Shown: in pieces, positions 1,286 to 40,395 of the stretch
Layout of the letters: every line of letters begins with the position of its first letter
Position numbering within the stretch: position 1 is the first letter of the stretch
Assembly (NCBI GenBank): GCA_043228905.1
Contig: JBHGNT010000065.1
Span: 62,001 to 126,000, forward strand
Length of the DNA stretch: 64,000 bases
Direction: 5' to 3'
From: Azolla caroliniana
Lineage: Eukaryota > Plantae > Polypodiophyta
Notes under the pieces: generated by a model
The model's database searches: none
What the model was told of the DNA's origin: nothing
What the model saw: the letters and a program-made list of their open reading frames with translations, nothing else
Position numbers and translations under genes: made by a program

Positions 1286-2271
1286 GTATCCGCTCTTGAA
1301 AATCACCGGCCCGCCCCTTCCACCCATCATAGTGCCCCCTCGTCCGTTACTTTACCTCAGTGCTCTCCTGCCCGCGTAACATTATGAAAGGGTTGAGAAC
1401 AGCAACGGCGACGGTATAGCAAGAGAAAGCTAGAGAGAAAGGGCTATGGGAATGTGAAGGACTCCCTTCGTTGAAAAAGAAAGTGTCGATTGTCTATTCT
1501 TTAGGCACTCGCGGGAGACTAATCTCTCCTAGAGAACACGTGTGGGAAGTATTCGTTTCTAATAATCCCAAAGTCTTTAAGGTTTTGACCATTTTGTGTA
1601 ACCATTAGGATGCTCCGAAAACACTGGAGTACAGGAAGGAAACACTGGTGTCAAAGCATTCTTTGGGAACCACATCCTGTTCTTCCTAGATGGATGATTT
1701 GCCCCGTTTGATGCCGTCGTGTGAAAGTTGTTTTCATGATTTAGGAATTCAACTGATTTTAGGTAATCCATCTTTATGTGGCACGACATGAAAGGTGCTA
1801 TGAAAAACACGTAACCGACCGAATTACGTGAAATGGATAAATCAATCTGGTTAGGGCATTCTTTAGAACTTACTTCAGGAAGAATCATCCAGGGCTGCGG
1901 TTGCGGTTTCTTCTTTCTTGTATTCATAACTTTTTTCTATTGCTTTTTCGGCGAAAAGGCAAGCAAGTTTTACCTGACTTAACTGAAAAGCCTAGAAGTG
2001 TTTGTAATGCACAGCATCCTTAGCTCAGTCGGATAGAGCAACAACCTTCTAAGTTGAAGGTCACAGGTTCAAGTCCTGTAGGATGCGGAAAGTGCACATT
2101 AGATTATATACCTACGGAATGCTTTGCCCTTGTTCAGGGCGGGCTAGCGGGTTCTTCCTTTCAACCGAACCTGCATCATGCTTCGGTCACTTTTCGCTAT
2201 ATTGGTATATGGGATTACTTGCCCCTTTTCACTTCTTTTTAAACAGCCATGATTATAAAGAACCAATCTCA
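1286..2271. repeat. Direct repeat B, copy 1 (contains trnR-UCU); partner 39071-40056
   Basis: Identical sequence at offset 37785 (ORF 1577..1927 = 39362..39712). Confidence 0.95.
2014..2087 (+). tRNA. trnR: tRNA-Arg(UCU)
   Basis: GCATCCTTAGCTCAGTCGGATAGAGCAACAACCTTCTAAGTTGAAGGTCACAGGTTCAAGTCCTGTAGGATGCG cloverleaf. Confidence 0.95.
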
Positions 2272-2421
2272 GATTTTTATGAAACCCTGCCTGAACTGAA
2301 CTTTATCATGGCTTGCAGTCCACTTGAATAATTTGCTACTGTTCTATCAGTTTTCAAACGGATACATAGATTTTGAACATCGAAGAAAGAAAGCATATTA
2401 TGCGCCGCTCTACCGTATGAA

Positions 2422-3099
2422 ATGGAAAAAGGAAAGAAAGAGTATTATTCCAAAAAGGAAAAGAAAGTCATTTTTTAAAGATTACCGAATACAAGCGCAC
2501 ATTCGGGCTATTAGGGACCCCCAACTCCATATTATTAAAGATATTTATACGGATTTAGACGCGGAAGGGCTATTATTGATTTGGAAAAAACACTTTTATT
2601 CTTGAAGATTGCTTGTAATGCGATTGGATCTATCATTCGTAAGGAGGGCCATTTATTGTTGGTGAATATTGATCTTTTGTACGATGACACAATGAAAAAA
2701 ATGGCGAGAAGGACCAATTAAAGTCATATCAATTCCAAATGGATTGGTGGTTTCTTAATCAATTGGGAACATATGAAACATGAAGAACGCTTTAAGTATT
2801 CATCCACGTGGCGGCATTCTAGTCTACGTTTTTTAAAGATGTAAAGATATTTCGAAGGACTGATAACATGCTAAATTTCAGATAGTTTAGTTATACCGAA
2901 TGCACGTAAAGATTTCATAGCTATATTTGAAGCTAATTGATCATGAATATTTATTGCATTCCTGGTGGATTCTACTCTCCTAGAGGGATTACATAGGTTA
3001 GTTATTTATCTCATTCTGGTAAATAATGATTCCGTGTGGTTCACAAATCCATTTTGCTAATTGGTCACGAAAATAGTCATTCATTCGAAAAAGGCTTGA
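2422..3099 (+). CDS. rps2: Mitochondrial ribosomal protein S2 (needs U-to-C editing; alternative upstream start at 2308 from a nad9-derived segment; 3' end uncertain)
   Basis: Translation YLYGFRRGRAIIDLEKTL...RTN*SHINSKWIGGFLINW...FEAN..IFIAFLVDS matches plant mt Rps2; in-frame stops fall at Gln/Arg-type positions. Confidence 0.88.
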
Positions 3100-4113
3100 G
3101 AACCCAGCAGAAAAGCCAGTAAAATAAGGAAAATTCAAAAAAGAAAAAAGAATACCCACTAGAAAGGATGCTAGTTGCTGTCTCTCACCTCTTCAGAGCG
3201 GCACCAGAAATCAAGCAAGAACCAGTATTATTCGTCACCTTACTATGCGTCCCTTTGCCATTCTTTGCGATGGCGAAAGCGGCTCCAGATGAGAAAAAGA
3301 GCCCAGCACAGCCCTGGAATTTGGGCTTGATACACTGGGAGGTTATAAACAGTCACACCCGCAGAGAGCGGCTGGGCGGTAAGTTGGAGGGAGTTTTCTG
3401 CAACAACTTTAACTTTCGCAGCTAACAGAAATCTCCTCTGTCCTAGAAGATGACGTTAGATCAAACCTATGCTCTCAGGCGCTTCTAACGTCCTACAAAA
3501 CCGAAATCAAGTCAACAACGCCGCAAGCAATTAGTGACCTCAGTTCAGCTAGCAGGAAATATGATACTGGGATAGGGTAGCAGGCACTATCGCGAGGCGC
3601 TCCCCTATCCCAATGGGACTACAGGAAAGTCCGCAATGCAATATTGTGGAGAATGAATTAACCCCATTAAGGCAACCACGAAAGCATACCGCTTACGGTT
3701 TGATGAGTCTGATCTCGAGCGAGAATGAATTATCATTTTGTTCTGAGAATTCATCTGTTGGCTCAGCTCCTGGGGATGTAGAGGGCTAAAAGTAACAACA
3801 ACTTGGTTATGGAAAATTGTCTTCAATTAAGTCATTTTTTATCCTATACGTCGGGGCGGGGTCCGCCCCCTCCCACGCCAATTGAACCAGTTAAAGGGAA
3901 GACAAGATCGACCCTCAACCATGCTGCTTTTACGGCATGCTCTTCCTTTCTTCCTGTGCTTGTTCTCTTCAGTCTAAGCTACGTAACTCCTCCCTTCAGT
4001 CCAAACCTTCGTCCCAATTCGTAAGCCTTCGCTTGACCGCAGTCCCTCGGTAGAAATGGGTTTGGTTTTCCCATAGCCATGATCTGTAGCCATCCTTTGT
4101 CCTATTTGTCAGT

Positions 4114-16102: not shown

Positions 16103-17834
16103 ACTGCTGGCTGGCTGGCTGGCTGTTAGCCCTCTCAAGTAATGGAGTCGATGGATCTGTTGAGGGCAAAGCAGCCATATTTTTCTCCTTGAAAGATTAA
16201 GGACATAAACTTTTCAAATAGCTACACCTGGTTCTGGACCGATTGATGTGGATACAGAAGAGCAGGATGTGCTACCCATCATGGATAGCATAGTTCGAGC
16301 AACACTGAACTGAAAGGTATGACTGAAGTGTAATCGTTTTGTTGGCAGGCAAATAGACGACATATTCCTAGGGGGTTTTTTACCGATGCAGCACGCACGA
16401 AAAAATCGACTCGACTTTTCTTCGATGATTTAGACAGAGATTTCACCACCTACCACGAGTGGAATGGCAAGGTTCTGCCAGGACACCCAGCGGCAAGACA
16501 ACCGTGAAAGGAAAGGCAGGGCCAAAGGATTATCATCCATCTCAGCCAGCGCGGAAAGAAAAGAAAAGAAGAGCTCTGCTTGCTCTTTTTGACAATAATT
16601 TCGCTACTCCAGTCATGGGCAGCATTATTACATGCATAGGGCGGACCCGAGCTCTTTTCGCTGCAGTTTTCCCTACGGCTTTCCTCCCCTCCTTTGGAAG
16701 TGTCAGCTAACTCCTGGAATCCCCCTTTCCCTCCTTCTAAGAAAACCATGCTCGGTTAGATCAGTGTGGACTGATGTTTCGTTCCACTGCTGCTGGAAAA
16801 GCCGCCAAATTCGTCACTGACTGGAGAGCGGGAACGACTCACTATCTCGTCTTATTCTCAGAGGCGAGAATGCTCTCAAATGGCTAACGGTGCTTTCAAC
16901 TAAAGTTCCATTTCTTAACACAGCGAGGCTTATACTGTTTATTCGTACGACAATGCGCGACGCTCCACTATCCCATTGAAAAAGGATTCCGCAATCATTT
17001 ACGTACTTAAACGCAGACTGAGTAATAGTAATTCATGCCATTCCTCGGGCTCAGACCACAGAGCTTCCTAGGAACTGGGAAAATGCTATAAATCTGTTTA
17101 AATAGCTTCGCTTTTTGCCCTAAAAGTCGCTCTGAAAATGTCACTTAGAGTGTTTTGACTAAGGGAAACAAAACCCACTAGACGAACAGCTACTAATATT
17201 TCCTCATTATATATTATTATTCATTCCAAACTCAAAACGCTAGAAATTGAAATAGCAAATAAAATCAATTCGCGCGTAAATCGTACTTATATTCTGTTGC
17301 TCTTCCTTGTCTGTTCTCGATATTCATGGCAGTTTCTTGGCCTTCATGCAGGCAAGCAAAAGGGCGGGCGCCACCAGCATGCATTTCTGGACTCGTGCCC
17401 GAAGAAAAGAAGCGGGCGGTAAGAAGCGGTTTTCATCATCCGGCGGGAGTGAAAAGAAAAGTTAGGTCGGGAGGTAGTGCACGCTCGCTGGTCCTGATAT
17501 CAAAATTCTCGCCTTCGTGCCGTGTGTGTCTGGTTTCAATGAATTCCGCATGAAGGGGTGCGTGCGCGCAGGCAACAAGCCTGCCCTGGCAATTCCGGCC
17601 ATAATCTGCGTGCGGTTTTCATCATCATGAAGGCCTTCATGATGAAAAAGGGGTTGGCGGGTTTGATGAACCGGTTGGTTTTCATCCGGATGAACCGGTT
17701 GGTTTTCATCCGGATGAACCGGCGGGTTAGCTTGCCCGTGAGGGCAGGCAGCTCTTTGTCCGCACGTATGTCGCCCGGGGAACCGGGCGGGGGATCTGCT
17801 GGATTTCTATCTAATGTGCCAATCTGTATACGAA

Positions 17835-20900: not shown

Positions 20901-21759
20901 CGTTTCTCTTTCCATGTCAATGAAGGTTTATTGCATCATTCAAATGAATACGAATCGGGATTATAGGGACATAAGCTTATAAAATAACTACACCTGATTC
21001 TAAACCAGTTGATGCAAATACGATCGAAAGAAGAGCGAGATGTGCTAATAGCAAGATACCCCTCATGGATAGCATGGTCCGAGCAAAGCCACTCGAAATC
21101 TTGACTGAACTATAACCAGCCATCATATTAGCAAATAAACATATTCCTAAGCTTAGTGCACGAAAACGATAGAGGATTAACTCCGAAAATACTGGGAAAG
21201 GCGCTAACGGTGGAGGTACACCCGGCAGTAATAAGAGACTGAAAGGATGAGGCCCATGTGTTTAAGACCCCACTACGATAGTTCCAAGAGAAAGAGAGAA
21301 TAGAGAACCCAAAATAATAATAGAATGACTTATTACCATAAAACTATAAAGTACCATACCTTACAAATTACGAAATAATGGAAAGGTAAAAGTAACGAGG
21401 ATCGGGAGAGAAGACTATTATTTCGAAACGCCACTAATTTATTCGTTCACTAGATTGGGCACGAAATCATAAGTCATCTCCACTAGGGATTACCAAGCAT
21501 TCAGTACTAAGTGTCCTCCATTCGAGGTCACCAAGTGAACTAGGAGCGGGATTAAACTGGTAGTGGGTGACATAGATGGAGAGGAATTGATAAATAAAAG
21601 ATACGGATTTCCTATATGGATGGAAATCGATAGAATAATGGCAGGTTATTCCGGTAGACTGTAAGCCGTGATGAATTGAAGGGTTTTGTTCCAACATGCA
21701 TGAAAGAGGGTTGTTCTTAACGTTTATCAATTTTTCGGACTAGCTCTGTTGAAGAGCTC

Positions 21760-34183: not shown

Positions 34184-34363
34184 CTACTTGGGCCAGCATG
34201 CACCTATTCTTTCTTTCTTTATCCCGACCGCTCGTCGGTTTACAATGAACTGATTTCGGATTCGGAGGGCTTCCGAGCCGCCTCGGCGGTTAGTACTAAA
34301 AGATCTGGGCGGCGTTAGTCGCCAAGGACTGGCAAAATTACAAAAGGATCTGGGCGGCATTAG

Positions 34364-34918
34364 TCGCCAAGGACTGGCCAAATCAGAATAGCAAAATTCT
34401 TGAACCATCTCCATCAGTTCAGGAACCACACATTTCTCCAGATCATCGTGACGTACTTCCACGTATCCACTTAAGAGGAAGTCTTTTCATAATAAATGAC
34501 CCTCGAAACCGTAATCGGTTAATGTACGGCGTAAATCAGGATAATTAGGAGAATGTAAACCAGACGTATCCCGCACTTCTCGCTCCCACCGGCCGGCTGA
34601 TAGGGATATACTGATTACCAAACTTGCAGAAGTGATTTCATCTACACCAATTCGTACACGAATGCATGGGTTATATCAAATGCTTGGTGAGTTATAGACT
34701 ACTCCGAATCTTCATTTTTGAGAAGGATAATCAACTCCGCGAGTATCGATCGGAATTCCAAGACGTATATTGATATGATACCTCGAAAACCACAGGAATT
34801 AAAATGGATAGTCCGGAGTGGCGCATAATATGCTTTCTTCCTTCGATGTTCAAAATCTATGTATCCGTTTGAAAACCGATAGAACAGTAGCAAATTATTT
34901 AAGTGGACTGCAAGCCAT
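34364..34918 (-). CDS. nad9: NADH dehydrogenase subunit 9 (stop uncertain: editable CGA at 34364-34366, otherwise read-through to 34184)
   Basis: GVDYPSQK*RFGVVYN...SAGRWEREV.D..G....PDLRRTLTDYGFEGH.L*KDF.LSGYVEVR.DD.EK.VV.E..EM.QEF.Y.D.ASPW. Confidence 0.92.
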
Positions 34919-35577
34919 GATAAAGTTCAGGCAGGGTTTCATAAAAATCGTAGTGAGCATTGATTCTTTATAATCATGGCTGTTTAATCGGAGGGCTGAA
35001 ACCTTAAGCGAAACCGCGTCGAGGCCGGTCATGAGATTCCGCCGTATCCCGGCAGCCTTATCATCAATTAAGGATCCCTACCCAAAGATTCTATATGCTT
35101 TTCGTTAGGGTTCCTTGATGGGCGGCTTTGGAATGCGTGCTGGCAACCGCTTCATCCGCGCCAAAGCGAAAAGGTTCTGGGGCCGTGGTGGGTTCGATTG
35201 ATGGGCCAATCTTCTCAACTAGTTTTGTGCATATGAAGCAAACTTCTCATTCACAACGTTGGAAGATCGCATACCCGAGTACGGCGGCTGGGGGGGTTTG
35301 CTCTAAAGCCATTCCTACACCAAAAGAAAGGAGCAAGCCAAGGTTCTCATCACGGGCATCCCAGGGATTGTTATTATACGATAATCCTTGCATCACTCGT
35401 GCGAATCGCAAAGCCACCGTTTCCGGATGAATCATGCCTGAACGAGCCAGTCAATAGGGCGGGTGAAAGTATTGAAGAATCGTGAATTCATTTACCAAAT
35501 TAATTGTCGACTTGCTGCTGAAGGCGGCGGCTTTAGGTTTTTTTTTCGATCAAATCGTGGATGGGGTATTCATGGCA

Positions 35578-39070: not shown

Positions 39071-40056
39071 GTATCCGCTCTTGAAAATCACCGGCCCGCC
39101 CCTTCCACCCATCATAGTGCCCCCTCGTCCGTTACTTTACCTCAGTGCTCTCCTGCCCGCGTAACATTATGAAAGGGTTGAGAACAGCAACGGCGACGGT
39201 ATAGCAAGAGAAAGCTAGAGAGAAAGGGCTATGGGAATGTGAAGGACTCCCTTCGTTGAAAAAGAAAGTGTCGATTGTCTATTCTTTAGGCACTCGCGGG
39301 AGACTAATCTCTCCTAGAGAACACGTGTGGGAAGTATTCGTTTCTAATAATCCCAAAGTCTTTAAGGTTTTGACCATTTTGTGTAACCATTAGGATGCTC
39401 CGAAAACACTGGAGTACAGGAAGGAAACACTGGTGTCAAAGCATTCTTTGGGAACCACATCCTGTTCTTCCTAGATGGATGATTTGCCCCGTTTGATGCC
39501 GTCGTGTGAAAGTTGTTTTCATGATTTAGGAATTCAACTGATTTTAGGTAATCCATCTTTATGTGGCACGACATGAAAGGTGCTATGAAAAACACGTAAC
39601 CGACCGAATTACGTGAAATGGATAAATCAATCTGGTTAGGGCATTCTTTAGAACTTACTTCAGGAAGAATCATCCAGGGCTGCGGTTGCGGTTTCTTCTT
39701 TCTTGTATTCATAACTTTTTTCTATTGCTTTTTCGGCGAAAAGGCAAGCAAGTTTTACCTGACTTAACTGAAAAGCCTAGAAGTGTTTGTAATGCACAGC
39801 ATCCTTAGCTCAGTCGGATAGAGCAACAACCTTCTAAGTTGAAGGTCACAGGTTCAAGTCCTGTAGGATGCGGAAAGTGCACATTAGATTATATACCTAC
39901 GGAATGCTTTGCCCTTGTTCAGGGCGGGCTAGCGGGTTCTTCCTTTCAACCGAACCTGCATCATGCTTCGGTCACTTTTCGCTATATTGGTATATGGGAT
40001 TACTTGCCCCTTTTCACTTCTTTTTAAACAGCCATGATTATAAAGAACCAATCTCA
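39071..40056. repeat. Direct repeat B, copy 2
   Basis: Identical to 1286-2271. Confidence 0.95.
39799..39872 (+). tRNA. trnR: tRNA-Arg(UCU), copy 2
   Basis: Identical to 2014-2087. Confidence 0.95.
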
Positions 40057-40092
40057 CTACGATTTTTATGAAACGAAGAAAGACTTTTTCTT

Positions 40093-40395
40093 ACGGATCT
40101 GGTCAAATATTTGACATTTTCCATGATTTCCTCTCTTTCAGGTATTCAGGGAATTCTCTCAAATAGAAGGAATATTACTATTATGCCGACGCTAATTGAG
40201 TTAATGTTATTGGCTGTCAATTTGAACTCTCCGGTATTTTCTGTCTATTCGGATGATATGATGGGTTAATCACTCACTTTACTAGTGTTAACGGTGGCAG
40301 TTGCGGAATTCGCAATTGGGCTGGCCATTCCGGTGGTAACTTCTCGAATTCGCGGGACCATTGCCGTGGAATTTCCTAATCGCATGAAAGGTCGA
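40093..40395 (+). CDS. nad4L: NADH dehydrogenase subunit 4L (ACG start, CGA-to-UGA stop)
   Basis: [10 protein letters not shown]...GI.GIL.NRRNI.IM...[21 protein letters not shown]...[18 protein letters not shown]; 100 codons. Confidence 0.94.

What the first reader, a model, noticed from the sequence alone, without database searches (positions are those of the whole stretch)
2308..3099. In-frame nad9-rps2 chimera gated by two editable stop codons
Seen: 2308 to about 2406 is a slightly diverged copy of the first roughly 33 codons of nad9 (ATG GCT TGC AGT CCA CTT ... ATA TTA TGC GCC), fused exactly in frame to the rps2 ATG at 2422 (114 nt, 38 codons upstream). It keeps the TAA (2329) and TGA (2374) that nad9 itself must remove by U-to-C editing. 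Inference: unedited RNA gives a 7-codon uORF ahead of rps2, while edited RNA gives an N-terminally extended Nad9-Rps2. The factors that edit nad9 could therefore switch rps2 translation. I know of no description of this arrangement.
Basis: partly seen in the sequence, partly recalled or inferred. Interest (0 to 1): 0.72.

Follow-up and report, generated by a model that had tools for sequence, protein, structure and literature searches.

The report
Fern rps2 with borrowed nad9 start
In this fern mitochondrion the ribosomal-protein gene rps2 carries an in-frame copy of the front end of nad9 (which itself resembles the start of atp6); a distant fern has the same join and a related fern edits it in RNA, so it likely gives Rps2 a longer, borrowed start, and its two stop codons are probably passengers rather than a switch.

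Summary
Observation confirmed: window 2239-2410 copies nad9's 5' UTR and 33 codons, in frame with rps2 ATG2422, keeping TAA2329 and TGA2374. One correction: rps2 does not end at 3099; in RNA contigs TGA3097 is edited away and C3136U creates the stop. In a related fern the rps2-linked copy is edited at TGA2374, and at TAA2329 on contigs with rps2-type alleles; unedited copies occur too. A distant fern contig (L013, 74.5% identity, sister to Dryopteris Rps2) has the same join, in frame, but with sense codons at both stop positions, as in Ceratopteris Nad9. The leader therefore tracks nad9 (likely gene conversion) and the stops look inherited, not tuned; rps2 has ten editable stops of its own. 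nad9's first 16 codons are atp6-like in four fern Nad9 proteins but not in Psilotum or Ophioglossum. Best reading (0.6): an old atp6>nad9>rps2 relay of a start module, passively co-edited, likely giving a 276-aa Rps2 from ATG2308. Editing-gated switch about 0.08. Translation start untested. Not found in ten paper searches or in earlier notes of this scan.

The parts
1286..2285 (+). Upstream block shared with the nad4L locus (39071-40074), including trnR(UCU) at 2014-2087; supplies the far upstream region of rps2
   Evidence: nad4L identity at 40093-40392 by Pfam PF00420
2239..2307 (+). Copy of the nad9 5' UTR (first ~47 nt also shared with nad4L); carries an rps2-specific 4-nt deletion near 2271 and a 5-nt duplication near 2291
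2308..2355 (+). Leader codons 1-16: nad9 start that is itself atp6-like (35 of 48 nt identical to the atp6 start, 43 of 48 if C/T differences are counted as editing); likely the translation start of rps2 (untested)
2329..2331 (+). TAA, edited to CAA on contigs with rps2-type alleles in organism C; also present in nad9 and at the same codon of atp6
2356..2406 (+). Leader codons 17-33: nad9-proper sequence
2374..2376 (+). TGA, edited to CGA on the rps2-linked copy (12 nt from the rps2-specific A2386)
   Evidence: record 18; record 27 (inferred)
2407..2421 (+). Linker after the junction (Ala-Leu-Pro-Tyr-Glu); resembles codons 4-8 of outgroup fern Rps2 N-termini and also nad9 codons 38-40; 6 nt longer in L013
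2422..3138 (+). rps2 body from the Met that Dryopteris QUQ06879.1 uses as start to the stop made by C3136U; 10 in-frame editable stops, 8 of them seen edited in the rows shown
34816..34987 (-). Donor: nad9 5' UTR and first 34 codons (nad9 ATG at 34918)
21622..21669 (-). Likely ultimate donor: first 16 codons of atp6 (ACG start)

Best explanation
rps2 here carries an in-frame copy of the nad9 front end that is edited in a related fern and conserved in a distant one, and it is likely translated from this borrowed start as a 276-residue Rps2, with the two stop codons probably passengers copied from nad9 rather than a switch. Steps. SHOWN: the copy, its frame and its two stops; the atp6-like first 16 codons of nad9 in four fern Nad9 proteins; the same junction in L013; C/U changes at seven leader sites on rps2-linked RNA contigs of organism C. 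INFERRED: (1) in a leptosporangiate ancestor the atp6 start replaced the native nad9 start; (2) later, before the split of this fern from the Dryopteris/L013 branch, recombination put the nad9 UTR plus 33-40 codons onto rps2, probably replacing its ancestral first codons; (3) recurrent gene conversion keeps the leader like the local nad9, so it gains or loses editable stops with nad9; (4) the PPR-DYW factors that edit nad9 meet the same upstream sequence on the rps2 transcript and edit it too; (5) the ribosome uses the borrowed initiation region at ATG2308. UNTESTED: the start codon actually used and whether the 38-residue extension is kept or clipped.
For: Same junction, in frame, in 5 of 5 metagenome loci, including L013 at 74.5% identity, whose Rps2 is sister to Dryopteris (100/98; window joins them 100/97), and in 3 of 3 DNA-like runs of organisms D, E, F. 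L013 differs from the window leader at 27 of 114 columns with a single 6-nt gap and no stop, whereas the 3' flank has 21 gaps in 656 columns, 5 of them multiples of three. Editing: X6 record 18 runs 2272-2824 with 17 other letters, exactly the 17 C/U changes listed there, including 2329 and 2374, and none at 2326, 2349, 2386; X4 record 11 has the same seven leader changes. Tracking of nad9: L013 leader matches Ceratopteris Nad9 at 21 of the first 23 residues but the window leader at 16; in organisms D, E, F nad9 and the leader share one contig over 2268-2385, with A2305C on it. Precedent in the same genome: nad9 has no other start than its atp6-like one. Three unnamed outgroup Rps2 clusters start about eight codons upstream of the 2422 position (P0002, P0142, P0150), two of them have Ile at that position and Haplopteris has Ser. 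Frameshifting rps2-specific indels sit upstream of 2308 (2 seen) and none downstream.
Against: No ribosome or protein evidence. No fused protein in three protein searches (0 of 9, 0 of 2, 0 of 4 hits). Met2422 is kept in the window, L013, Dryopteris and P0002, and Ophioglossum starts about there. Frame conservation is weak statistically: P about 0.06 over the whole leader, but gene conversion can erase indels; 0.27 over L013 codons 23-40, 0.64 over the linker, 0.14 for the indel placement. It rests on one distant contig. Leader amino acids are little constrained (pN/pS 0.68 on 34 codons against 0.34 in the body). X3's contig is unedited in the leader while edited in rps2; X4 shows unedited 27.3 against edited 14.3. 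In organism A (X9, RNA only a guess) the shown contigs with rps2-type alleles around 2329 are unedited (depth 241) and an edited one was not seen. Haplopteris lists no edit upstream of its annotated rps2 start. All RNA data are assembled contigs of other organisms, not reads of this one.
Confidence: 0.6

Rival explanations
1. Inert leader: the nad9 copy only supplies promoter or 5' UTR, is edited as a by-product, and Rps2 (238 aa) starts at ATG2422, possibly after the mRNA is trimmed near 2350; the frame is chance preserved by gene conversion.
For: Met2422 is the annotated Dryopteris start and is kept in L013; leader pN/pS 0.68; in X9 contigs with rps2-type A2349 sum to depth 359 against 1289-1850 from 2356 on (contig depth is a poor measure); mTRAN-type A/U motifs lie upstream of both ATGs (motifs from PMC11897456).
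Against: In frame and open in both lineages despite 24% divergence and an indel; L013 has no stop, so its leader would be read if nad9's initiation region works; the 2422 Met is absent in P0142, P0150 and Haplopteris; X6 and X3 contigs run unbroken from 2272 into rps2.
Confidence: 0.28
2. Editing-gated switch: the level of U-to-C editing at 2329 and 2374 is regulated and chooses between a 7-codon uORF and the extended Rps2, tying ribosome supply to nad9 editing factors.
For: Both edited and unedited leader forms occur in RNA runs, and runs of one study differ in the majority path (X3 unedited, X4 mixed, X6 edited). If ATG2308 is the main start, both edits are mechanically required in this lineage.
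Against: Stops absent in L013 and follow nad9; internal rps2 stops 2842 and 2872 show the same pattern across runs (X3 and X4 unedited path, X6 96.4 edited against 65.8), so partial editing is not special to the leader; stop removal is routine in ferns (233 sites in Haplopteris).
Confidence: 0.08
3. Assembly artefact or dead copy: the join is a mis-assembly across the nad9 repeat, or rps2 is a pseudogene.
For: The locus sits among recombining repeats and appears 8 times in the assembly. Two Blechnaceae papers report rps2 absent.
Against: Independent assemblies bridge the junction; rps2 is edited towards conserved residues and has pN/pS 0.34.
Confidence: 0.02

Closest known systems
Chimeric ORFs and borrowed 5' regions made by repeat recombination in plant mitochondria (e.g. 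rice CW-orf307, atp1 upstream region fused to the N-terminal part of orf288; PMC2851602, passages seen; variable Atp6 presequences, recalled)
   Same: A gene's upstream region and first codons are duplicated and joined to another reading frame.
   Different: Those are mostly young, line-specific ORFs. Here the acceptor is an essential-type gene under purifying selection, the join is shared by two distant ferns, the module passed through two steps (atp6 to nad9 to rps2) and the copy tracks its donor.
U-to-C removal of genomic stop codons in fern organelles by DYW:KP PPR proteins (PMC10027690 section 10 and supplement file 7; PMC9478123 and PMC11897456 passages)
   Same: TAA and TGA are read as CAA and CGA in RNA; factors recognise the sequence upstream of the site, so an identical copy is expected to be edited.
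   Different: The edited stops lie in a duplicated leader on a second gene, so one cis-element likely serves two mRNAs.
Editing-gated stop-codon switches and regulatory uORFs (e.g. fungal A-to-I premature-stop correction; recalled)
   Same: An editable stop lies near the 5' end ahead of a long frame.
   Different: There the stop is conserved and editing is condition-specific; here the stop is lost in L013, mirrors nad9, and no regulation is shown.

Membership tests
Plant mitochondrial chimeric gene | Segments of two different mitochondrial genes joined in one reading frame | tested here: met
Plant mitochondrial chimeric gene | Junction is real DNA, not an assembly product | tested here: met
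   bridged in 3 of 3 DNA-like runs and 5 of 5 metagenome loci
Plant mitochondrial chimeric gene | Transcribed and edited across the junction | tested here: met
   organism C RNA contigs, X6 record 18; contigs, not single molecules, and not the window's own organism
Plant mitochondrial chimeric gene | Translated as a fusion protein | not testable with these tools
   needs Ribo-seq or proteomics; no fused database protein
Functional rps2 (uS2m) | Ribosomal_S2 domain, frame restored by editing, purifying selection | tested here: met
   PF00318 E 1.8e-25; 8 of 10 stops seen edited in the rows shown, 2938 and 2944 not among them, 27 rows hidden; pN/pS 0.34
Editing-gated translational switch | Editable stop conserved wherever the arrangement is conserved | tested here: not met
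   L013 has TCA and GAA at the two positions
Editing-gated translational switch | Edited and unedited forms coexist | tested here: met
   X4 records 11 and 12; X7; also true of internal rps2 stops
Editing-gated translational switch | Editing level is regulated independently of general editing | tested here: inconclusive
   leader and 2825-2878 block vary alike in X3, X4, X6; contigs cannot quantify
Editing-gated translational switch | Editing state changes protein output | not testable with these tools
   needs ribosome profiling or editing-factor mutants

The most novel reading that the evidence does not exclude
A single start module has been relayed atp6 to nad9 to rps2 in leptosporangiate ferns and is kept in step by gene conversion, so that subunits of ATP synthase, complex I and the mitoribosome share initiation and editing factors; rps2 has lost its own start, and in this lineage the editing state of the borrowed stops sets how much full-length Rps2 is made.
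Probability: 0.15. Interest if true: 0.75.

Novelty: new variant of a known kind. Interest (0 to 1): 0.48.

Why it matters
If ATG2308 is the start, fern rps2 annotations that begin at the downstream Met are truncated, and a three-gene chimeric N-terminus has lasted across deep fern lineages instead of being a transient rearrangement. It gives a natural test of how plant mitoribosomes choose a start codon (same initiation region on two mRNAs, with a competing downstream AUG on one) and of whether one U-to-C factor serves two or three transcripts. It also offers a lead for the report that Pteridium reads map only to the 5' end of nad9 (bioRxiv 10.1101/2022.12.23.521604, passage). It is not, on present evidence, a new regulatory switch.

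Tried and rejected
Protein searches for a fused Nad9-Rps2: none among 9, 2 and 4 hits; uninformative because gene callers break at the DNA stops. Pattern scans of genome contigs and viral contigs for the junction: 0 matches each. Nuclear copies: 8 fetched, none spans the junction. RNA folding around either ATG: no better than shuffles (z 0.48, -0.10). Sigma-70 scan: not a relevant promoter type, ignored. mTRAN-type motifs lie upstream of both ATGs and do not discriminate. Upstream in-frame ATGs 2119 and 2209 rejected as starts: frame depends on the 5-nt duplication that L009, L010, L012 and organisms C-F lack. The rps2 body pN/pS was computed out of register and discarded; one search replaces it. 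The ungapped Ophioglossum and Psilotum identities are one residue out of register and were not used. Six-frame Pfam scan of the conserved 3' flank: nothing above cut-off. No structure prediction was run. Earlier-findings look-ups gave two unrelated notes and none by sequence.

Full report
Setting. The window is fern mitochondrial DNA: the frame at 2308-3096, with stops read as Gln/Arg, hits Ribosomal_S2 and its best named relative is Dryopteris crassirhizoma Rps2 at 80% identity. I did not determine the species. The locus occurs 8 times, identically, in the assembly, probably as redundant mitochondrial contigs.

The observation. Window 2239-2410 copies nad9 34987-34816: 69 nt of 5' UTR and 33-34 codons. 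The coding part differs at 2326, 2349 and 2386, then diverges from 2407. ATG2308 is 38 codons ahead of ATG2422, in frame, with TAA2329 and TGA2374 as in nad9. Further upstream, about 1286-2285 is shared with the nad4L locus, so the rps2 front end is a mosaic of nad4L-upstream and nad9 sequence. The rps2 body has 10 more in-frame stops. The mature frame is 276 codons from 2308 or 238 from 2422.

Editing of the leader. Of 20 runs listed I laid 8; all are assembled contigs, so they show presence, not levels or single molecules. Organism C is a relative (it lacks the 5-nt duplication at 2291); X3, X4, X6 are RNA on record, X7 is a guess. X6 record 18 spans 2272-2824 with 17 other letters, which are exactly the 17 C/U changes listed for that stretch: 2329, 2345, 2348, 2353, 2354, 2359, 2374 in the leader and ten in rps2. 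It keeps the rps2-type letters at 2326, 2349 and 2386. The edit at 2374 lies 12 nt from A2386, so it is tied to the rps2 copy; the edit at 2329 is tied to it only if organism C's nad9 differs at 2326 and 2349, which X7 record 26 (2296-2379, 10 other letters) suggests but I did not lay nad9 to confirm. X4 has an edited (depth 14.3) and an unedited (27.3) leader contig. X7 has an unedited one (6.6) and, by subtraction, a second edited contig (17.5) not displayed. X3's single contig is unedited in the leader and edited in much of rps2, but it is also unedited at 2825-2878, which holds rps2's own stops 2842 and 2872; X4 behaves the same there and X6 is split 96.4 to 65.8. So the edited leader is displayed in 2 of 4 runs and inferred in a third; the unedited one is displayed in 3 of 4. 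In organism A (X9, RNA a guess) record 27 runs 2356-2467 with 2 other letters that by elimination lie in 2356-2386 (inferred 2359 and 2374), but the displayed contigs with rps2-type alleles around 2329 are unedited (depth 241), and 43 records were not shown. This may be bubble removal against the much deeper nad9 path (7275), or a real low level, or a 5' end near 2350; I cannot tell.

Conservation. Runs X17, X18, X19 (organisms D, E, F; no editing-type changes, so DNA-like) carry 2356-2570 with 0 differences (3 of 3), and there nad9 and the leader share one contig over 2268-2385 with A2305C on it, which points to gene conversion. A metagenome scan gave 5 loci from 137 candidate stretches; 5 of 5 have the leader in frame. 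Four are close relatives. L013 is not: 74.5% identity over 1669 columns, Rps2 sister to Dryopteris (100/98), with the window outside that pair (100/97). Its leader is 40 codons, joins after the same nad9 sequence, differs from the window leader at 27 of 114 columns with one 6-nt gap, and has no stop. Its first 23 residues match Ceratopteris Nad9 at 21, Asplenium at 19 and the window leader at 16, including Ser8 and Glu23 where the window has stops. Haplopteris nad9 lists edits at 38 and 52 (the window's 2345 and 2359) but no stop removal at 22 or 67 (PMC10027690 supplement file 7); a Deparia nad9 primer shows the codon-8 stop (PMC5932399 table). The stops thus come and go with nad9. An independent second origin at the same junction is not excluded. 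How strong is the frame signal? The 3' flank has 16 frameshifting gaps in 656 columns; at that rate none in 114 nt has P 0.06, but conversion can erase indels, and over the parts that look unconverted P is 0.27 (L013 codons 23-40) or 0.64 (linker). Suggestive only. Leader pN/pS is 0.68 against 0.34 for the body: the frame, not the residues, is what seems kept.

Where the module comes from. The first 48 nt of nad9 and of the leader match the atp6 start (21669, minus; PF00119) at 35 positions, 43 if C/T differences are counted as editing, including the codon-8 TAA; the next 51 nt match at 12-13. Of 15 Nad9 proteins fetched from 128 hits, 4 have this atp6-like start (Asplenium, Ceratopteris, two unnamed), 9 have the ancestral type (Ophioglossum, Psilotum, Lycopodium, Cycas, hornworts, moss, liverwort, one unnamed) and 2 are truncated. 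nad9 keeps its normal length (the Arg-to-Trp site is at nucleotide 328 as in Haplopteris). So nad9 is itself a start-swap chimera, and must use the borrowed start. For rps2, three unnamed clusters (P0002, P0142, P0150; the two placed in the tree branch outside the window/Dryopteris group, support 84/85) begin Met-Glu-Ile-Asn-Arg/Leu-Pro-Tyr, about eight codons before the 2422 position. The window's linker Leu-Pro-Tyr-Glu-Met fits that, which suggests the nad9 piece replaced the first four ancestral codons. These starts are gene-caller choices, and the linker also resembles nad9 codons 38-40, so this step is an inference. The 2422 Met is Ile in P0142 and P0150 and Ser in Haplopteris, whose annotated start is an ACG six codons upstream, edited to only 34% and with no edits listed upstream. 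It is Met in the window, L013, Dryopteris and P0002.

Mechanism. Most likely (0.6): borrowed start, passive co-editing, translation from ATG2308. PLS-type editing factors read the sequence upstream of the site (PMC9478123, passages), so an identical copy is expected to be edited without any selection for it. Plant mitoribosomes are guided by A/U-rich 5' motifs (Arabidopsis; PMC11897456, passages), and the rps2 transcript would carry nad9's whole initiation region; such motifs also lie before ATG2422. Rival: inert leader with ATG2422 used (0.28).

Literature. Ten searches gave no paper that I saw describing a nad9 leader on rps2 or an atp6-derived nad9 start. Seen: PMC10027690 (passages, section 10, supplement file 7 rows and part 6; file 2 unreadable); bioRxiv 10.1101/2022.12.23.521604, PMC11965612, PMC13683679, PMC5932399, PMC2851602, PMC11897456, PMC9478123 (passages only); all others as listings. 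Subscription papers, the original Asplenium report and the preprint's supplements were not seen and may mention it. Atp6 presequences and fungal editing switches are recalled, not from a call.

Verdict. Observation confirmed with a corrected 3' end; interpretation partly supported. A real, edited and apparently old chimeric front end, a new variant of a known kind of mitochondrial rearrangement; the switch is unlikely. Interest 0.48.

Noticed in passing
window 34871-34918 (minus) against 21622-21669 (minus): nad9 starts with 16 atp6-like codons; shared by Asplenium, Ceratopteris and two unnamed Nad9 proteins, absent in Ophioglossum and Psilotum. A possible marker of leptosporangiate ferns.
   Followed up: yes
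window 2239-2285, 34941-34987 (minus), 40024-40074: A 47-nt upstream block is shared by rps2, nad9 and nad4L; possibly a common promoter or 5'-end signal. P0010's upstream translation suggests the block also precedes nad9 in another fern.
   Followed up: partly
window 3160-3844 and L013 920-1651: About 700 nt downstream of rps2 stay alignable (79% identity, 21 gaps) between two distant ferns; no Pfam match above cut-off in six frames. Unexplained.
   Followed up: partly
window 34305-34385 (minus): The 3' end of nad9 holds a tandem duplication of about 36 nt, so its C-terminus repeats a Ser-Pro-Trp-Arg-Leu motif; the true stop was not determined.
   Followed up: no
window 16198-16302 and 20964-21086: A dispersed repeat of about 110 nt matches the 3' part of atp6; probably a gene fragment.
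   Followed up: no
window 1-1992/12521-14512, 10038-12658/51938-54558, 23530-33722/53808-64000: Large perfect inverted repeats (2.0, 2.6 and at least 10.2 kb) and many GCAA/GCAC tetranucleotide arrays; a highly recombining or redundantly assembled mitogenome.
   Followed up: no
P0144 (Haplopteris Rps2): 518 residues with a long C-terminal extension, no Met at the usual position and a start codon edited to only 34%; its true start may lie upstream.
   Followed up: partly
L012 1150-1300: Matches the window to about 3105 with a diverged rps2 3' end, then unrelated sequence; possibly a chimeric contig or nuclear copy.
   Followed up: no
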